Of a stretch of 6,448 nt of DNA, positions 1 through 6,448 are shown piece after piece. The position numbers and the translations under genes are program-made. Under the pieces are notes generated by a model. The model did no database searches and had not been told where the DNA came from. It saw only the letters and a program-made list of their open reading frames with translations. Location of the stretch: positions 1 through 6,448 of the IMG/VR virus record IMGVR_UViG_2693429637_000008. The stretch is one strand, 5' to 3'. Each line of letters opens with the position of its first letter. Position 1 is the stretch's first letter. The stretch is from a virus (taxonomy: Duplodnaviria; Heunggongvirae; Uroviricota; Caudoviricetes).

Positions 1-50
1 TGTCAACGCCACGATGTTTGACCGTTATTTGCCATTTTCATGCCCGCTAA
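1..50. repeat. IS21-family terminal inverted repeat, istB-distal end (IRR); extent approximate
   Basis: TGTCAACGCCA...GACCGTTATTTGCCATTT pairs imperfectly with the reverse complement of 2081-2130 (TGTCAGCGCCA...GACGGTAATTCGCCATTT). Confidence 0.75.
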
Positions 51-59
51 ATACTTTCG

Positions 60-2029
<1,970 letters not shown>

Positions 2030-2080
2030 GTTGATGTCCTTTCTGGTGTGAGAACCTTAAGGAAACAACATGTTGGGTGG

Positions 2081-2130
2081 AGCGGACAATCCAAATGGCG
2101 AATTACCGTCTTATATCACTGGCGCTGACA
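2081..2130. repeat. IS21-family terminal inverted repeat, istA-proximal end (IRL); extent approximate
   Basis: Ends ...GGCGCTGACA at 2121-2130, the reverse complement of the window start with one mismatch in the first 11 nt. Confidence 0.75.
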
Positions 2131-2361
2131 CTCCCTCCGTTGTTGAGAACGGCGACGGTATGCCAGCAACTCAAGAACTCTGGTTCGTATGTTGCGCATA
2201 TCCACGCCGTTAAGCTCAATACCGTCACGGCGCATTACCTCATCCACCACACGCGCATAATTTTCAGCGGTCACGCTGTCCGGTTGCATGGCCTGTTCGT
2301 CAACCTGCTGGCTGATTCCGGCGACGCGGCGGATTAATCCCAGTATTTCGGCTTCTGTCAT
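2116..2361 (-). pseudogene. Small element gene truncated by the IS21 insertion; possibly a head-completion or head-tail connector-like protein (weak guess)
   Basis: ATG at 2361 preceded by a GGGGG Shine-Dalgarno-like run. Codons 1-77 (2131-2361) are native; the last four codons and the stop (2116-2130) lie inside the IS21 terminus. It sits directly downstream of the capsid gene. Confidence 0.5.
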
Positions 2362-2399
2362 TGTGCCCCCATCGCGCTGGTTAAGAAAACAAGCTCAGA

Positions 2400-2613
2400 T
2401 TTTTTGTAAAGAATCTGTCACGCTAAAAGATGTCGAACAAAAATTAACCACAATCATCATCTTTTTTGCATCAACTACATTAAAAACAACAGGTTACACA
2501 CATGATGATGATGACGATAAAACCACAAAAATGCGCTTTTTTCCGCGCCGACCCGCCCCGTGGACAGGCCCCCCCCACCAGGAGGACCCGCAAAAAAGGC
2601 GGCTGCTGCCGCC
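2400..2613 (-). repeat. Intergenic terminator/regulatory cassette, copy 1 (paralogue of 4918-5130)
   Basis: Shares with copy 2 the blocks TTTTTTGTAAA, TCGAACAAAAA, CGCYTTTTTCCGCG, CCGCCCCGTGGACAGGCC, CCCCCACCAGGAG and a terminal hairpin plus A-run, in the same order and spacing (plus-strand reading). Confidence 0.75.
2592..2613 (-). terminator. Rho-independent terminator downstream of the capsid gene
   Basis: Minus strand reads GGCGGC-AGCA-GCCGCC followed by TTTTTTG, 6 nt after the capsid stop codon at 2620-2622. Confidence 0.7.
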
Positions 2614-2619
2614 TTGTTC

Positions 2620-3378
2620 TCATGAAGAAATCGCTCTGACCATTCCGCGATAATCCAGAGCAGCAACGCCAGCATCAATGCGGACCTTCCAGGCCACACC
2701 GTCAACAATAAAGCCCTCCTGCTGCTCAAGGTAAGGCTCGTCATTACCGTCAAGATAAGCCACCTCAATTGTGTCCGTTCCCTGTGCTGAAAGCATGTAC
2801 CATTGCTTATCACTGACTTCATCAAGGCGGGGATCGACAATAATATCCAGTTGTTTGTGGTACGGGTTATATGAACCACTGTTTGTATCGGCACCGAAAG
2901 GCGTGGTTGAGTTAACCATTTGCAACGCTCTGTCTTCCAGAGCCGCAGGAACAAGAAGGAATTTTGGCACAATATTCAGCACCTCACCGTTTTCATCCCT
3001 CTGTGTGCGCATTGCACGGCGTGCAATGCCAAGCCCTGTAGTGCTGACTCCGTTATCAATATCATTTCCGTGTTTTTTGCTGAACAGCGGTATACCGTCA
3101 GAAAGCTTTGTGTTTCCTGTCAGCACCAGATGAACCAGATTACCCACCGTTCTGGCGGCTGCTCGCCCCATTGCCTGTGGGATAACTGTTAACTGATTCA
3201 GGTCATCGTTAATAATCGCCTGTCGGGTAATGCTGAAAATATTTCCGTAAGTTGCCAGCGCGATTGGTTCGCCACGGTCACTGGTGGTGATGTATTTATA
3301 TTCCGCGCCTTCCGGCACTTTGTTTAATGTAGAGAAGCCATTCAGGCCAACACGACGTGCCTCATGGAAGTTTGACAA
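2620..3378 (-). CDS. Major capsid protein (HK97-like), C-terminal ~250 residues; downstream frame of a split protease-capsid gene
   Basis: The 252-aa ORF has no ATG start (the ORF track begins it at a TTG) and is in the -1 frame relative to 3342-4487. Composition and length fit the body of a phage major capsid protein. It is entered from the upstream frame at the A_AAA_AAG heptamer at 3384-3390. Confidence 0.7.
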   Translation of the reverse strand: MSNFHEARRVGLNGFSTLNKVPEGAEYKYITTSDRGEPIALATYGNIFSITRQAIINDDLNQLTVIPQAMGRAAARTVGNLVHLVLTGNTKLSDGIPLFSKKHGNDIDNGVSTTGLGIARRAMRTQRDENGEVLNIVPKFLLVPAALEDRALQMVNSTTPFGADTNSGSYNPYHKQLDIIVDPRLDEVSDKQWYMLSAQGTDTIEVAYLDGNDEPYLEQQEGFIVDGVAWKVRIDAGVAALDYRGMVRAISS

Positions 3379-4487
3379 TGAACCTTTTTTCGTCCACTGG
3401 CGGAACGTTTCGCCGCTGTGTTCACGGATTTTTCAGCACCACCAGCAAGGATATAAGTAAAATCGCTGCTGCTGTGGGTGAATGCCGCGTTTACTATCTG
3501 CGAGCGTGTGCTGTAGCTGCCTGTGCTTATGCCGCGATGGGTTAATGATGCCTGTGCCATATCGAAAAGGCTCATCATGGCGTAAGGGTTGCCGCGTTCT
3601 GCCTGTTCATGTCCCAGACGCGCATTAAGCCCCTGACGCATTGCATCGCCGGTTATGTTGCCGTTATCCGTGTACGCGTAGTAAAGATTTGCGGGGGTGG
3701 TTTTGTTTGTCGGTGTCGATTCTTTACCCATAGTGAGTAAAAGGCGTTCGCGTGCATCCTCAACGCTACAGCCTGAATCAGCAAGACAACTTATAGCCAG
3801 GTCGTTATATCTTCCATTGAACGTGCCAAACAATTCACGTATCCCGTTGAGTCGTTCCTGTTCTCCGCTGCCAGTTTTCTGGCTGATCATGCTTTTAATA
3901 TTTTCCGGCATATTCGAAAAATCTCCGATTCGTTTTGATTCAATTCTGGCCATTGCTGTAATCGCGGGTATAACCTCATCTGCGAAGCCATTAGCCTTAC
4001 ACTCATTGCCATCCATCCAGGTTTCCGCCTCCATCATGGCGGTGATTTCCTGTTTGCTCCTGCCCGTTCTTCCGGCGTAGGTTTCCGCCATCGTGTCGCC
4101 CAGCTTGTCCATCAGGTCAGCAAAGCGGCGAACGTCGCCCGACACTCCGGCAGTAACACCACGGGGGGCATGTATCATCATCATCGCGTTTTCAGGCATA
4201 ACGATGTGATCGCCACACATGGCAATAAACGAGGCCATAGAAGCCGCCATGCCTTCAATGTGTACAATTTTCTTTGCCGGATGATTTTTCAGGGCGTTAT
4301 AGATAGCCAGCCCTTCAAAGATGTCGCCACCAGGTGAATGGATGCGAAGATGGATTTCAGGCACATTACCGCACGCGTTGATCTCGTCAGTAAGTGCCGA
4401 TGCTTTTACACCGTACCCGCCGATCTCGTCATAAATGCGTACATGTACAACATCAGCCATAGCCTTAATGGAAAACCATGTTTTCAT
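3342..4487 (-). CDS. ClpP/S49-like prohead protease fused to a scaffold-like linker and the N-terminal part of the major capsid protein; upstream frame of the split gene
   Basis: 381-aa ORF with AGGAG 7 nt before the ATG at 4487. The N-terminal ~190 aa have serine-protease-like motifs (IHSPGGDIFEGLAIYNAL, HIEGMAASMASFIAMCGDHIVMPENAMMMIHAP). This frame stops 13 codons after the slippery heptamer. Confidence 0.75.
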   Translation of the reverse strand: MKTWFSIKAMADVVHVRIYDEIGGYGVKASALTDEINACGNVPEIHLRIHSPGGDIFEGLAIYNALKNHPAKKIVHIEGMAASMASFIAMCGDHIVMPENAMMMIHAPRGVTAGVSGDVRRFADLMDKLGDTMAETYAGRTGRSKQEITAMMEAETWMDGNECKANGFADEVIPAITAMARIESKRIGDFSNMPENIKSMISQKTGSGEQERLNGIRELFGTFNGRYNDLAISCLADSGCSVEDARERLLLTMGKESTPTNKTTPANLYYAYTDNGNITGDAMRQGLNARLGHEQAERGNPYAMMSLFDMAQASLTHRGISTGSYSTRSQIVNAAFTHSSSDFTYILAGGAEKSVNTAAKRSASGRKKVHCQTSMRHVVLA

Positions 4488-4711
4488 AGCCAGGCTCCTA
4501 ACGTTGCCCTGTACCAGTATTCAACCGCGCTTCTCGCAATCTGCCCTTTCGTGGGTACTGGCATTCCAGGGTGATGACTTTTAATGAACTGCTGATAGCG
4601 TTCGAGCTTCTCCATAGTTCCGGCGTCTATGTGCACTGTTGCACTTTTATCCGGTTTTCTGCTGTTGTTCTCTGGCATAAGTCTGCCTCCGTTATGATTA
4701 ACGGGCATCAT
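4484..4711 (-). CDS. Small ribbon-helix-helix-like DNA-binding protein (putative regulator); true start probably the ATG at 4678
   Basis: GGAGG (plus-strand CCTCC at 4686-4690) lies 7 nt before the internal ATG at 4678, giving a 64-aa product. Predicted strand-helix-helix pattern (ATVHID / MEKLERYQQFIKS / TKGQIARSAVEYWYR). Its stop overlaps the protease start (ATGA at 4484-4487). Confidence 0.6.
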   Translation of the reverse strand: MMPVNHNGGRLMPENNSRKPDKSATVHIDAGTMEKLERYQQFIKSHHPGMPVPTKGQIARSAVEYWYRATLGAWL

Positions 4712-5146: not shown

Positions 5147-5569
5147 TTAAAACGGTATGTTATCCCCGTACGGATCATCATTCCCCGCCTGTTGTTTGGC
5201 CCTGTTCAGTGCATCAGTGGCCTGCCCCTGTTGGCCTTTTTTACCGCCCGGTCGCGCCGTTCTGGCACTGATTACACTGTCTGCGATAACCTGCCAGCCC
5301 TGCCGCGTTTCTCCGTTCTGGCCTGTCCACTGGCTTACCTGCATGTTACCCGCCACGCTCACCAGCTCGCCTTTCTGGTGCTTTGCCAGTGCGTCAGCCT
5401 GTCTGCCAAACGCCAGGACGGATAACCATATCGTCGCCGTTCCGTCATCTGCCTGGCTGCACGGCAGGGGAACCGCCATACTCGCCATCGTCATTTGCGT
5501 ACCCTTGCTGGTGGTCTTTAACTGCGGGTCAGCCACCAGCCGCCCGTAAGCCGCTATCTGTGCTGTCAT
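5147..5569 (-). CDS. Short single-stranded-DNA-binding (SSB)-like OB-fold protein with a C-terminal ...DNIPF tail
   Basis: 140-aa ORF with GGAGAG 8 nt upstream. The N-terminal ~100 aa follow the bacterial SSB OB-fold pattern (GRLVADPQLKTT..., WLSVLAFGRQADALAKH, QKGELVSVAG). A Gly/Gln-rich linker leads to a C-terminal ...GNDDPYGDNIPF, resembling the SSB acidic IPF tip. Its ATG overlaps the upstream stop (ATGA at 5566-5569). Confidence 0.7.
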   Translation of the reverse strand: MTAQIAAYGRLVADPQLKTTSKGTQMTMASMAVPLPCSQADDGTATIWLSVLAFGRQADALAKHQKGELVSVAGNMQVSQWTGQNGETRQGWQVIADSVISARTARPGGKKGQQGQATDALNRAKQQAGNDDPYGDNIPF

Positions 5570-5811
5570 GCTGTCTGCTCTCCGGTTTTAACGTTGATGG
5601 TTGTCACCTGTTCCGCTTCGGCAATCTCCCGTTCTGTCAGCGTGGCAAAGTTTGCCGCCGTCGTGGTCATGAATGCGCTTATCAGTTCGGGATGTGCTTT
5701 CGCGTATCCTTCCCCGGCGTTGCGGTCGATGATTTTTATCGCCACCCTCAGCCAGTGTTCTGTCAAATCAAGGGCGTGAGATTGTGGTTTTTTGGCGTGC
5801 TTCGTTGTCAC
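5566..5811 (-). CDS. Hypothetical 81-aa protein, first gene of the SSB operon
   Basis: GTG start at 5811 with GAGG 8 nt upstream; translationally coupled to the SSB-like gene. No recognisable motif. Confidence 0.5.
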   Translation of the reverse strand: MTTKHAKKPQSHALDLTEHWLRVAIKIIDRNAGEGYAKAHPELISAFMTTTAANFATLTEREIAEAEQVTTINVKTGEQTA

Positions 5812-5855
5812 AGGCTTTACCTCACAGCAATAAAATAAAATTTTTGCATTTTAAC

Positions 5856-6086
5856 CCTTCACCTGTTCACCTTTTGCAATTTTCCCTTTTTATTCATGAT
5901 GTTAATGGGTTAACAGTTTCACAAAAACTATTCACCAACTGTTCACCACTGTTCACCCTTAAAGCTCAATAAAGAATCAAAAAGGTGAACAGTGAATAGT
6001 TTGGTGAACAGTTCATAAATAACTGTTCACCCTATAATATACTGATATAAAAGACATTTATTGCAGGGTGAACAGTGGTGAACAGT
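5856..6086. repeat. Iteron array: putative replication origin of P4 alpha-protein type
   Basis: Direct copies of (AC)TGTTCACC at 5864, 5940, 5950 and 6024, with variants CCTTCACC at 5856 and TATTCACC at 5929. Inverted copies GGTGAACA(GT) at 5984, 6003, 6067 and 6077. Interspersed AT-rich tracts and a perfect TATAAT at 6033-6038. Confidence 0.75.
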
Positions 6087-6114
6087 TATTCCATAAGTTT
6101 AATTTTTTCCATCG

Positions 6115-6411
6115 TCATTTGTGACCTATTGCACATGATGGCATCCAGTCTTCTGAATCCTCTGTCAGGGTCACATTTGAACGCAAACCGTGCTTCGTTT
6201 TCCGTTTCATATACTCCCTGCCATATTCCGCCATTGCCCCCGGCATATCTTTACCGAAGCGCGTCAGTGTTACAGGTTTACCGAATCCGTGTGCCCTCAT
6301 ATATGCCAGATAGGCGTGATAAAGATACCTGCGCGGACTGAACGGAATAATTTCGGCATTACCCACTAACAGACCATCACACATTACCGACGACATGAGG
6401 TGTACTGGCAA
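6115..6411 (-). CDS. Hypothetical 98-aa protein upstream of the iterons (possibly replication-associated); start uncertain (TTG at 6411 or ATG at 6396)
   Basis: Open frame with protein-like composition, but no convincing Shine-Dalgarno sequence. An in-frame TAG lies at 6421-6423, and other minus-strand frames are open right to the window edge. Confidence 0.35.
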   Translation of the reverse strand: MPVHLMSSVMCDGLLVGNAEIIPFSPRRYLYHAYLAYMRAHGFGKPVTLTRFGKDMPGAMAEYGREYMKRKTKHGLRSNVTLTEDSEDWMPSCAIGHK

Positions 6412-6448
6412 TAGCGGACACTACCATTTGTTCTTTTTTTAAGCAGCC

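What the first reader, a model, noticed from the sequence alone, without database searches (positions are those of the whole stretch)
5856..6086. Dense bidirectional iteron array consistent with a P4 alpha-type replication origin
At least eleven copies or near-copies of the octamer TGTTCACC (10-mer ACTGTTCACC) occur in both orientations within ~230 bp, separated by AT-rich tracts. To my recollection this octamer is the type I iteron bound by the phage P4 alpha primase-helicase at ori and crr. A perfect TATAAT (6033-6038) is embedded between iterons, so initiator binding could also regulate a promoter. The array implies a cognate alpha-like initiator encoded nearby, probably just upstream of 6448.
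Basis: partly seen in the sequence, partly recalled or inferred. Interest (0 to 1): 0.6.

Follow-up and report, generated by a model that had tools for sequence, protein, structure and literature searches.

The report
Orphaned replication origin of a phage satellite
The repeat cluster is the replication origin of a known kind of phage-parasitic island (a PICI) in the Shigella sonnei chromosome; it uses the same binding sites as satellite phage P4, but an insertion sequence has broken its own initiator gene, so it is a correct but ordinary finding.

Summary
TGTTCACC occurs 8 times exactly in 5864-6084 and nowhere else in the window (0.32 expected). Four degenerate copies sit at positions conserved in relatives, giving 12 sites.

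TGTTCACC is the annotated "ori type 1 repeat" of phage P4. The ORF directly next to the array (6118-6399, minus strand) is the C-terminal DNA-binding domain of a P4 alpha-like protein (PDB 1KA8, E=8e-23).

The array is two mirror-image modules. Each has the site order and spacing of the P4 ori core (3 sites, 1 inverted site, an AT-rich spacer of about 35 nt, 2 sites). They flank a 26-bp spacer that is 77% AT.

The window is Shigella sonnei Ss046 (CP000038 929528-935975). It lies inside an island that Fillol-Salom et al. 2018 already list as a PICI. The tested origin of the E. coli PICI EcCICFT073 has the same 12-site layout with a different octamer.

The same layout sits immediately 3' of alpha-like genes across Enterobacterales, and 669 of 5426 complete E. 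coli genomes carry this array.

In this copy the initiator gene is split by IS600 at codon 508 and also carries a nonsense codon. The origin is therefore orphaned and could fire only if a matching initiator were supplied in trans.

The promoter idea (TATAAT at 6033-6038) is not supported. Verdict: a new member of a known kind, of low interest.

The parts
5856..6086 (.). Complete iteron array (12 site positions) = replication origin of the PICI
   Evidence: It holds 8 exact TGTTCACC, two 1-mismatch and two 2-mismatch copies. The 12 positions are kept in register in 11 arrays from Shigella/Escherichia, Raoultella, Pluralibacter, Citrobacter, Klebsiella and Pectobacterium. Iteron columns are 87% identical to the window against 62% for spacer columns (Mann-Whitney p=5e-11).
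5856..5957 (-). Distal module. Read on the minus strand it has the P4 ori layout: three sites (5950, 5940, 5929), one inverted site (5908), an AT-rich spacer (5872-5907), two sites (5864, 5856)
   Evidence: Start-to-start spacings are 10, 11, 21, 44 and 8, against 10, 11, 22, 43 and 10 in P4 ori. The two sites plus spacer (5858-5913) are 87-94% identical to the same part of the P4 crr repeats.
5958..5983 (.). Central 26-bp spacer, 77% AT, between the two inner iteron triplets; candidate melting site
   Evidence: Composition is. In relatives the sequence diverges while the flanking triplets stay. Fillol-Salom 2018 describe two iteron sets flanking an AT-rich region as the PICI ori layout. Melting at this position is inferred.
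5984..6086 (+). Proximal module. Read on the plus strand it has the P4 ori layout: sites 5984, 5991 (degenerate), 6003; inverted site 6024; AT-rich spacer 6032-6066; sites 6067, 6077
   Evidence: Window 5963-6086 aligns with P4 9289-9415 at 82% identity over 117 columns, score 62 against a shuffle maximum of 30. It also matches the ori of a P4-like prophage (L010 6001-6117) at 75%.
6115..6399 (-). 3' fragment (codons 508 to stop; stop codon at 6115-6117) of the alpha-like Rep gene: the C-terminal origin-binding domain
   Evidence: PDB 1KA8 (origin-binding domain of P4 alpha) E=8e-23. Pfam Pox_D5 E=3e-11. It is collinear with residues 506-600 of the intact 605-aa protein of E. coli RM10410, which is 50% identical to P4 alpha residues 320-776.
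6400..6448 (.). End of the IS600 copy that splits the Rep gene
   Evidence: Annotated as IS3-like element IS600 in plasmid hits. In S. sonnei Ss046 the IS is 1264 bp with a TGT target duplication, inserted at GYLM|SS.
5566..5811 (-). First gene 3' of the origin: 81-aa protein, phrog_1231, function unknown
   Evidence: The same gene follows the array in E. coli RM10410, and a hypothetical gene holds the same position in EcCICFT073.
5147..5569 (-). Single-stranded DNA-binding protein gene of the replication module
   Evidence: Pfam SSB E=3.9e-16. An SSB gene follows the origin in RM10410, in the O157 PICI and in EcCICFT073.

Best explanation
The array is the replication origin of a Gram-negative phage-inducible chromosomal island (PICI) of the EcCICFT073 family, integrated between cspD and clpS in the Shigella sonnei chromosome.

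Its initiator is a P4 alpha-like protein made of a D5_N domain, an SF3 helicase and a C-terminal winged-helix domain. That C-terminal domain recognises the octamer TGTTCACC. The origin lies directly 3' of the initiator gene.

The origin consists of two mirror-image modules. Each has the layout of the P4 ori core: three sites, one inverted site, an AT-rich spacer of about 35 nt, then two sites. The modules flank a 26-bp AT-rich centre.

Proposed mechanism (inferred): initiator molecules bound to sites spaced at roughly whole helical turns (about 10, 21 and 43 bp) assemble on both modules. They melt an AT-rich spacer and load the helicase for bidirectional replication after the island is induced.

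In this copy the initiator gene is split by IS600 between the helicase and the DNA-binding domain, and it also carries a nonsense codon. The origin is therefore a relic that can act only if a matching alpha-type initiator (from P4 or a co-resident PICI) is supplied in trans.

Shown here: the sites, their architecture, homology to P4 ori and crr, the adjacent binding-domain homologue, the gene disruption, and conservation across genera. Inferred: binding, melting site and firing.
For: - **Repeat statistics.** 8 exact octamers against 0.32 expected.
- **Iteron identity.** P4 annotates the same octamer as the ori type 1 repeat in ori and crr.
- **Homology and architecture.** 82% identity to the P4 ori core with identical site order and spacing. 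The left module has the same layout on the other strand.
- **Adjacent binding domain.** The neighbouring ORF matches PDB 1KA8 at E=8e-23. P4 alpha's C-terminal winged helix is its DNA-binding domain (PMC2777425).
- **Source and prior listing.** The window is S. sonnei Ss046. Table S2 of PMC6092414 lists a PICI at CP000038 922309-936578, which contains the window.
- **Island gene order.** int, alpA, DUF4222, Rep, ori, SSB, capsid homologue.
- **Tested relative.** EcCICFT073 Rep is 48% identical over its full length to the intact relative of the window's Rep. Its origin has the same 12-site layout with the octamer GGTAGACA. A pri-ori plasmid of EcCICFT073 replicates, and deleting pri or ori impairs this (PMC6092414).
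- **Conservation.** The layout sits 3' of alpha-like genes in many genera, and iteron columns are more conserved than spacers (87% vs 62%). 669 of 5426 complete E. coli genomes hold the array; all 29 near-full-length matches among the 30 hits sampled overlap a primase-family gene.
- **Specificity.** The repeated octamer changes with the C-terminal domain subtype among relatives.
Against: - No experiment exists on this array or on its TGTTCACC-type PICI relatives. Binding and firing are inferred from P4 and EcCICFT073.
- The cis initiator is dead, so the array may have no function at all in this genome.
- Two of the 12 sites differ from the intact E. coli RM10410 copy (5908 TGTTAACC against TGTTCACC there). 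This could be early decay.
- The link between binding-domain subtype and octamer is not one-to-one. EcCICFT073 has GGTAGACA sites but lacks the 5-residue insertion seen in the other GGTAGACA-type proteins.
- In P4 the element at this position (crr) is a cis-required accessory, not the start site.
Confidence: 0.85

Rival explanations
1. The array is the equivalent of P4 crr only. On this reading it is a cis-acting accessory element that binds the initiator and enhances or controls replication, while the real start site lies elsewhere in the island.
For: It occupies the same position as P4 crr, immediately 3' of the alpha gene. The left module's two sites plus spacer are 87-94% identical to the crr repeats.
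Against: - The intact relative RM10410 has no second cluster, and neither does any of 80 related loci within 7 kb on either side.
- Both modules carry the P4 ori layout rather than the crr layout.
- In EcCICFT073 the homologous region acts as the origin with pri alone.
Confidence: 0.07
2. The array is an operator or promoter region. Initiator binding to the repeats would regulate a promoter (TATAAT at 6033-6038), or the downstream SSB operon, rather than start replication.
For: A perfect TATAAT lies between sites. Iteron-binding initiators of plasmids often autoregulate (general knowledge).
Against: - The consensus scan finds no promoter at the TATAAT on either strand. Its single hit (5807-5836, +) is no more than shuffles give.
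- The hexamers 16-18 nt upstream of the TATAAT match TTGACA at 2 of 6 positions at best (read from the sequence).
- The TATAAT is replaced by TTAAC/ATTAAC in the O157 PICI, Raoultella, Klebsiella, Pectobacterium and P4.
- A plus-strand promoter there would read antisense into the Rep gene.
Confidence: 0.03
3. The array has no present function. It is a decaying fossil kept only because too little time has passed since the island was inactivated.
For: - The Rep gene carries two lesions.
- The capsid-protease fusion gene is split.
- IS1, IS600 and an IS21-family element are inserted in the island.
- One iteron is mutated relative to RM10410.
Against: This does not conflict with the origin assignment; it concerns only present activity. 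Ten of the 12 sites are within one mismatch of the consensus, so an initiator supplied in trans should still bind. That is an inference.
Confidence: 0.5

Closest known systems
Replication origin of Gram-negative PICIs (EcCICFT073 type; Fillol-Salom et al. 2018, PMC6092414)
   Same: - It lies immediately 3' of the pri-rep gene, as two iteron sets around AT-rich DNA.
- It has the same 12-site mirror layout.
- Rep is 48% identical over its full length.
- The island gene order is the same: int, alpA, DUF4222, Rep, ori, SSB, capsid homologue.
- The S. sonnei island itself is listed as a PICI in that paper's Table S2.
   Different: - The octamer is TGTTCACC (P4 type) rather than TGTCTACC, and the C-terminal binding domain is of a different subtype.
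- The Rep gene is disrupted here.
- The capsid homologue is a ClpP-protease/capsid fusion rather than separate capsid and decoration genes.
Phage P4 ori (origin bound by the alpha protein)
   Same: - The octamer is identical, and so is the extended 10-mer GGTGAACAGT.
- Site order and orientation are the same, with spacings of 10, 11, 22, 43 and 10.
- Identity is 82% over about 120 nt.
- The cognate protein's binding domain is homologous.
   Different: - P4 ori is a single module lying about 2.3 kb upstream of the alpha gene, between the orf88 (vis) gene and sid.
- P4 also needs a second element, crr.
- Here two modules are fused in mirror orientation, 3' of the gene.
Phage P4 crr (cis replication region)
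   Same: - It holds the same position, directly 3' of the alpha gene.
- It uses the same octamer.
- The two-site block plus T-rich spacer is 87-94% identical.
   Different: - crr is two direct 120-bp repeats.
- In each repeat the three-plus-one site block is inverted relative to the modules seen here.
SaPI replication origins (Gram-positive PICIs)
   Same: [quoted passage not shown]
   Different: No relationship between the SaPI iterons or Rep and those here was looked for; only the shared organisation is described.

Membership tests
P4 alpha-type origin (ori/crr system) | Multiple copies of the type 1 octamer TGTTCACC in both orientations | tested here: met
   8 exact and 4 degenerate copies. 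The P4 record annotates the same octamer.
P4 alpha-type origin (ori/crr system) | The ori core layout: three sites, one inverted site, an AT-rich spacer of about 35 nt, two sites | tested here: met
   The layout is present twice, in mirror orientation. One copy is 82% identical to P4 9289-9415.
P4 alpha-type origin (ori/crr system) | A cognate initiator with a C-terminal origin-binding winged-helix domain homologous to P4 alpha | tested here: met
   Window 6118-6399 (-) matches PDB 1KA8 at E=8e-23. The gene is inactivated.
P4 alpha-type origin (ori/crr system) | Two separate cis elements, ori and crr, several kb apart | tested here: not met
   Only one cluster exists in the intact relative L001 and in the S. 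sonnei island L004. None of 80 related loci has a second cluster within 7 kb.
P4 alpha-type origin (ori/crr system) | The initiator carries an N-terminal DnaG-type zinc-finger primase domain | tested here: not met
   The intact 605-aa relative aligns only with P4 alpha residues 320-776. Its Pfam domains are D5_N, DUF5906 and Pox_D5.
P4 alpha-type origin (ori/crr system) | Initiator-dependent replication from the array | not testable with these tools
   This needs a plasmid replication assay with Rep or alpha supplied in trans.
Gram-negative PICI origin (EcCICFT073 family) | The origin lies immediately 3' of the pri-rep gene | tested here: met
   The Rep stop codon is at 6115-6117 and the array runs from 6086 to 5856. 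Relatives have the same position.
Gram-negative PICI origin (EcCICFT073 family) | [quoted passage not shown] | tested here: met
   Six sites lie on each side of a 26-bp spacer that is 77% AT. The layout is described in PMC6092414.
Gram-negative PICI origin (EcCICFT073 family) | Island context: integrase, AlpA regulator, unidirectional replication module, size of about 10-14 kb | tested here: met
   Gene calls of L003 and L004. The island is listed as a PICI of 14.3 kb at CP000038 922309-936578.
Gram-negative PICI origin (EcCICFT073 family) | Rep homologous to the EcCICFT073 Pri-Rep | tested here: met
   48% identity over 596 aligned residues, including the N-terminal domain.
Gram-negative PICI origin (EcCICFT073 family) | A functional replicon (Rep plus ori sustains replication) | not testable with these tools
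   This has been shown only for EcCICFT073. Here Rep is disrupted, so the cis replicon should be dead.

The most novel reading that the evidence does not exclude
The orphaned array, apparently widespread in S. sonnei with its own initiator gene destroyed, may still act in trans.

Its 12 alpha-type binding sites could titrate the initiator of an incoming P4-like satellite or PICI of the same specificity, which would be an incompatibility or decoy effect. Alternatively such an initiator could fire the array, over-replicating the neighbouring cspD-clpS chromosome in place.

A related evolutionary reading is that the single mirror-symmetric array 3' of the gene is the ancestral state. On that view P4's split ori plus crr arose when one module moved away.
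Probability: 0.12. Interest if true: 0.45.

Novelty: new member of a known kind. Interest (0 to 1): 0.2.

Why it matters
This mainly serves as a correct annotation. It marks the origin of a decayed PICI in S. sonnei and shows that the island can no longer replicate on its own.

Two modest points may interest specialists in phage satellites:

- PICI origins of this family are built from two mirror-image copies of the module that P4 uses as ori. This ties the P4 and PICI replication systems together at the DNA level and suggests that P4's split ori and crr is a derived arrangement.
- Relatives carry at least five different octamers, together with different variants of the initiator's C-terminal domain. 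This is a natural data set for studying origin specificity and incompatibility among satellites.

Tried and rejected
- **Literature search for the octamer.** It returned only primer sequences and was of no use.
- **Promoter and terminator scan of 5500-6448.** It found no promoter at the TATAAT and no terminator. The promoter idea was dropped, also because the TATAAT is not conserved.
- **Rfam scan of the window.** It found nothing, so there is no sign of a structured RNA.
- **AlphaFold2 on the 93-aa domain without an alignment.** Mean pLDDT was 39.9, which is unusable. I therefore do not say which structural element carries the residues that vary with the octamer.
- **First CFT073 region fetched.** It was a lambdoid prophage, not the PICI. 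The right coordinates came from the paper's supplement.
- **A one-to-one 'code' between the KRKTKHG/IRSN segment and the octamer.** I considered this and rejected it. EcCICFT073 has GGTAGACA sites without the insertion seen in the other GGTAGACA-type proteins.
- **Chance or low-complexity repeat.** Rejected on the statistics.
- **A genuine P4 prophage.** Rejected: no sid, psu or delta genes, no DnaG domain in the intact relative's Rep, and only one array.
- **Independent expression of the 93-aa domain from Met508 at the IS600 junction.** I considered this. The upstream sequence ACACCTCATG has no Shine-Dalgarno match, so it is unlikely, but it was not tested.

Full report
**1. The observation**

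The region 5856-6086 holds eight exact copies of TGTTCACC. Four are on the plus strand (5864, 5940, 5950, 6024) and four on the minus strand (5984, 6003, 6067, 6077). There are no exact copies anywhere else in the 6448-base window. Dinucleotide-preserving shuffles give 0.32 exact copies per window, and none of 200 shuffles reaches 8. With one mismatch allowed there are 16 sites against 6.2 expected.

Four further copies are degenerate. Two have one mismatch: 5908 (-, TGTTAACC) and 5929 (+, TATTCACC). Two have two mismatches: 5856 (+, CCTTCACC) and 5991 (-, TATTCACT). All four sit at positions that hold iterons in related arrays. The array therefore has twelve site positions.

Seven copies carry the 10-mer ACTGTTCACC. 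The three longer spacers are 75-77% AT, against 50% in the rest of the island fragment. TATAAT at 6033-6038 is present.

**2. What the octamer is**

The RefSeq record of phage P4 (NC_001609, locus L002) annotates TGTTCACC as the "ori type 1 repeat". It does so both in the origin (9310-9413) and in crr, the "cis required region for replication" (4291-4590). crr lies directly 3' of the alpha gene.

**3. The neighbouring gene**

The minus-strand ORF that ends at 6115 encodes the peptide ...YLMSSVMCDGLLVGNAEIIPFSPRRYLYHAYLAYMRAHGF...KRKTKHGLRSNVTLTEDSEDWMP. It matches the solved origin-binding domain of P4 alpha (PDB 1KA8) at E=8e-23 and Pfam Pox_D5. [quoted passage not shown]

The closest intact relative is a 605-aa "DNA primase family protein" in E. 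coli RM10410 (locus L001). It is 50% identical to P4 alpha residues 320-776, which cover the helicase and binding domain. Its N-terminal 145 residues are different, and Pfam finds no primase domain in it.

**4. Where the window comes from**

The window matches Shigella sonnei Ss046 (CP000038.1) at 99.98% identity (locus L004 14487-8040, reversed). That places it at CP000038 929528-935975.

- Window 1 to about 2134 is an IS21-family element.
- Window 6400-6448 is the end of an IS600 copy.
- The 4.3 kb between them is 91.5% identical to a chromosomal island of E. coli.

In S. sonnei the island lies between cspD and clpS. Its gene order is int, an IS1, alpA, small ORFs, DUF4222, the alpha-like Rep, the array, an 81-aa gene, SSB, small ORFs, a ClpP-protease/major-capsid fusion gene, and the IS21-family element.

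Table S2 of Fillol-Salom et al. 2018 (PMC6092414) lists exactly this island as a PICI: S. sonnei Ss046, 922309-936578, 14.3 kb.

**5. State of the initiator gene**

IS600 (1264 bp, with a TGT target duplication) is inserted at GYLM|SS, codon 508. This is the junction between the helicase and the binding domain. After conceptual removal of the IS the reading frame is restored, but the Ss046 copy also has a nonsense codon at position 496.

Other S. sonnei assemblies have contigs that break at the same place, right next to the 93-aa remnant. The frameshifted capsid gene of this island is indexed in 2904 blocks of the assembly collection, so the decayed island is widespread. The cis initiator is dead.

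**6. Anatomy of the array**

Read in the direction of the Rep gene (the window's minus strand), the twelve sites form this pattern:

[<<] 43 [>] 21 [<(<)<] about 34 [>>>] 21 [<] 44 [>>].

This is two mirror-image modules.

- **Proximal module (5984-6086).** Window 5963-6086 aligns with the P4 ori core 9289-9415 at 82% identity over 117 columns. The alignment scores 62 against a shuffle maximum of 30. Site order, orientation and spacing are the same.
- **Distal module (5856-5957).** Read on the other strand it has spacings of 10, 11, 21, 44 and 8, against 10, 11, 22, 43 and 10 in P4 ori. Its two-site block and T-rich spacer are 87-94% identical to the same part of the P4 crr repeats.
- **Centre.** A 26-bp spacer (5958-5983) that is 77% AT lies between the two inner triplets.
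- **P4 crr compared.** crr differs from both modules in that its three-plus-one block is inverted.

The spacings of about 10, 21 and 43 bp are close to 1, 2 and 4 helical turns, so the sites would lie on one face of the helix. That is an inference.

**7. Relatives**

The array is present at 80% or more coverage in 668 of 5426 complete E. coli genomes. All 29 near-full-length matches among the 30 hits sampled overlap a primase-family gene. At about 80% identity it occurs in an O157:H7 PICI that carries PerC, ProQ and SSB genes (locus L009). That copy has the same twelve positions.

The weakest hit is the ori of a genuine P4-like prophage (locus L010). That prophage has both a separate ori and a crr.

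A scan of one genome per species returned 80 loci with alpha-like genes across Enterobacterales and beyond.

- A repeat array lies immediately 3' of the gene in most of them.
- The twelve-site mirror layout recurs in Raoultella, Pluralibacter, Citrobacter, Klebsiella, Pectobacterium, Photorhabdus, Xenorhabdus, Erwinia and Zobellella.
- No locus has a second cluster within 7 kb.

In an alignment of eleven arrays, iteron columns are 87% identical to the window and spacer columns 62% (Mann-Whitney p=5e-11). This is the pattern expected for protein-binding sites under selection.

**8. Specificity**

The repeated octamer differs among relatives. The types seen are:

- GGTGAACA
- GGTAGACA
- GGTGGAGA
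- GCGGACAGT
- GGTATACA or GTGTATAG
- GTGTTCAT

It changes together with the C-terminal domain, mainly in the segment aligned with KRKTKHG-LRSN of the window. All four GGTAGACA-type proteins in that sample carry a five-residue insertion there.

The window's domain is of the same subtype as all the GGTGAACA-type relatives and P4, which fits a cognate pair. The relation is not a simple code, however. EcCICFT073 has GGTAGACA sites with a third domain variant that lacks the insertion.

**9. Link to experiment**

EcCICFT073 lies at CFT073 1377749-1389210 (locus L092). It has the same gene order, and its Rep is 48% identical over its full length to the intact relative of the window's Rep. Its origin has the same twelve-site mirror layout.

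Fillol-Salom et al. showed that its pri-ori segment maintains a temperature-sensitive plasmid at the restrictive temperature. Deleting pri or ori impairs this. [quoted passage not shown] The class is therefore known and has been tested, though not this octamer variant.

**10. The promoter suggestion**

The consensus scan reports no promoter at the TATAAT. Its single hit in 5500-6448 is no more than shuffles give. The hexamers 16-18 nt upstream match TTGACA at 2 of 6 positions at best (read).

The TATAAT is also not conserved. Relatives and P4 have TTAAC or ATTAAC at that place. What is conserved next to the solitary inverted site is CCC-TTAAC. A plus-strand promoter there would read antisense into the Rep gene.

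**11. Mechanism**

The best-supported model has four steps:

1. After induction of an intact island, Rep is made.
2. Its winged-helix domain binds the twelve sites.
3. The two mirror modules position Rep assemblies on either side of AT-rich DNA.
4. The DNA melts and the SF3 helicase is loaded for bidirectional replication.

The sites, the binding-domain homology, the conserved layout and the EcCICFT073 experiment are shown. Binding, the melting site and the mode of helicase assembly are inferred.

In the S. sonnei copy none of this can happen in cis. A matching initiator supplied by P4 or by another PICI could still bind, since ten of the twelve sites are within one mismatch of the consensus.

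**12. Verdict**

It describes the origin of an already catalogued, decayed PICI, so it is a new member of a known kind and of low interest. The points of some specialist value are the two-module mirror architecture shared with P4 ori, the single-array arrangement as the common state, and the natural variation of octamer and binding domain.

Noticed in passing
window 6115-6448; L004 5304-8373: The alpha-like Rep gene of S. sonnei Ss046 carries two lesions. IS600 (1264 bp, TGT duplication) is inserted at codon 508, exactly between the helicase and the DNA-binding domain, and there is a nonsense codon at position 496. A 93-aa ORF starting at Met508 remains next to the IS end, with no evident ribosome-binding site.
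   Followed up: yes
window 2620-4487 (minus strand): The ClpP-like protease/major capsid fusion gene is a single 629-aa ORF in E. coli RM10410. Here it is split into overlapping 381-aa and 252-aa ORFs. The island thus carries a homologue of a lambdoid helper's protease-capsid fusion, which a prophage in locus L006 also encodes.
   Followed up: partly
window 1-2134: A complete IS21-family element (istA 857-2029, istB 60-860, minus strand) is inserted at the distal end of the island next to an 81-aa phrog_1561 gene (2116-2361). Another S. sonnei assembly (L003) lacks this insertion.
   Followed up: partly
L001 12988-14805; L092 5242-6996: PICI 'primase family' Rep proteins of this group (584-605 aa) have no recognisable primase domain; Pfam finds only D5_N, an SF3 helicase and the Pox_D5 binding domain. 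Their conserved N-terminal 140 residues match only phrog_2850, of unknown function. How these replicons are primed is not evident.
   Followed up: partly
L011-L090 (genome-contig loci): At least five different octamers are repeated 3' of alpha-like genes in different species, and they change with variants of the C-terminal domain. None of the 80 loci has a second cluster within 7 kb, so P4's separate ori and crr looks like the exception.
   Followed up: partly
L087-L090 (Pantoea, Ewingella): These alpha-like genes (772-779 aa, with a zinc-finger N-terminus, the closest in length to P4 alpha) show no repeated 8-mer in the 350-450 nt 3' of the gene. Where their origins lie is unexplained.
   Followed up: no
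L001 13554; L004 5843: A single exact TGTTCACC lies inside the Rep coding sequence of both the E. coli and the S. sonnei island. P4 is reported to have a second replicon as well (titles cited in PMC6092414). One copy could also be chance.
   Followed up: no
L007 5362-5742: In one S. sonnei assembly the segment matching window 2131-2511 (the 93-aa phrog_1561-type gene) occurs a second time about 1.4 kb away, after clpS.
   Followed up: no
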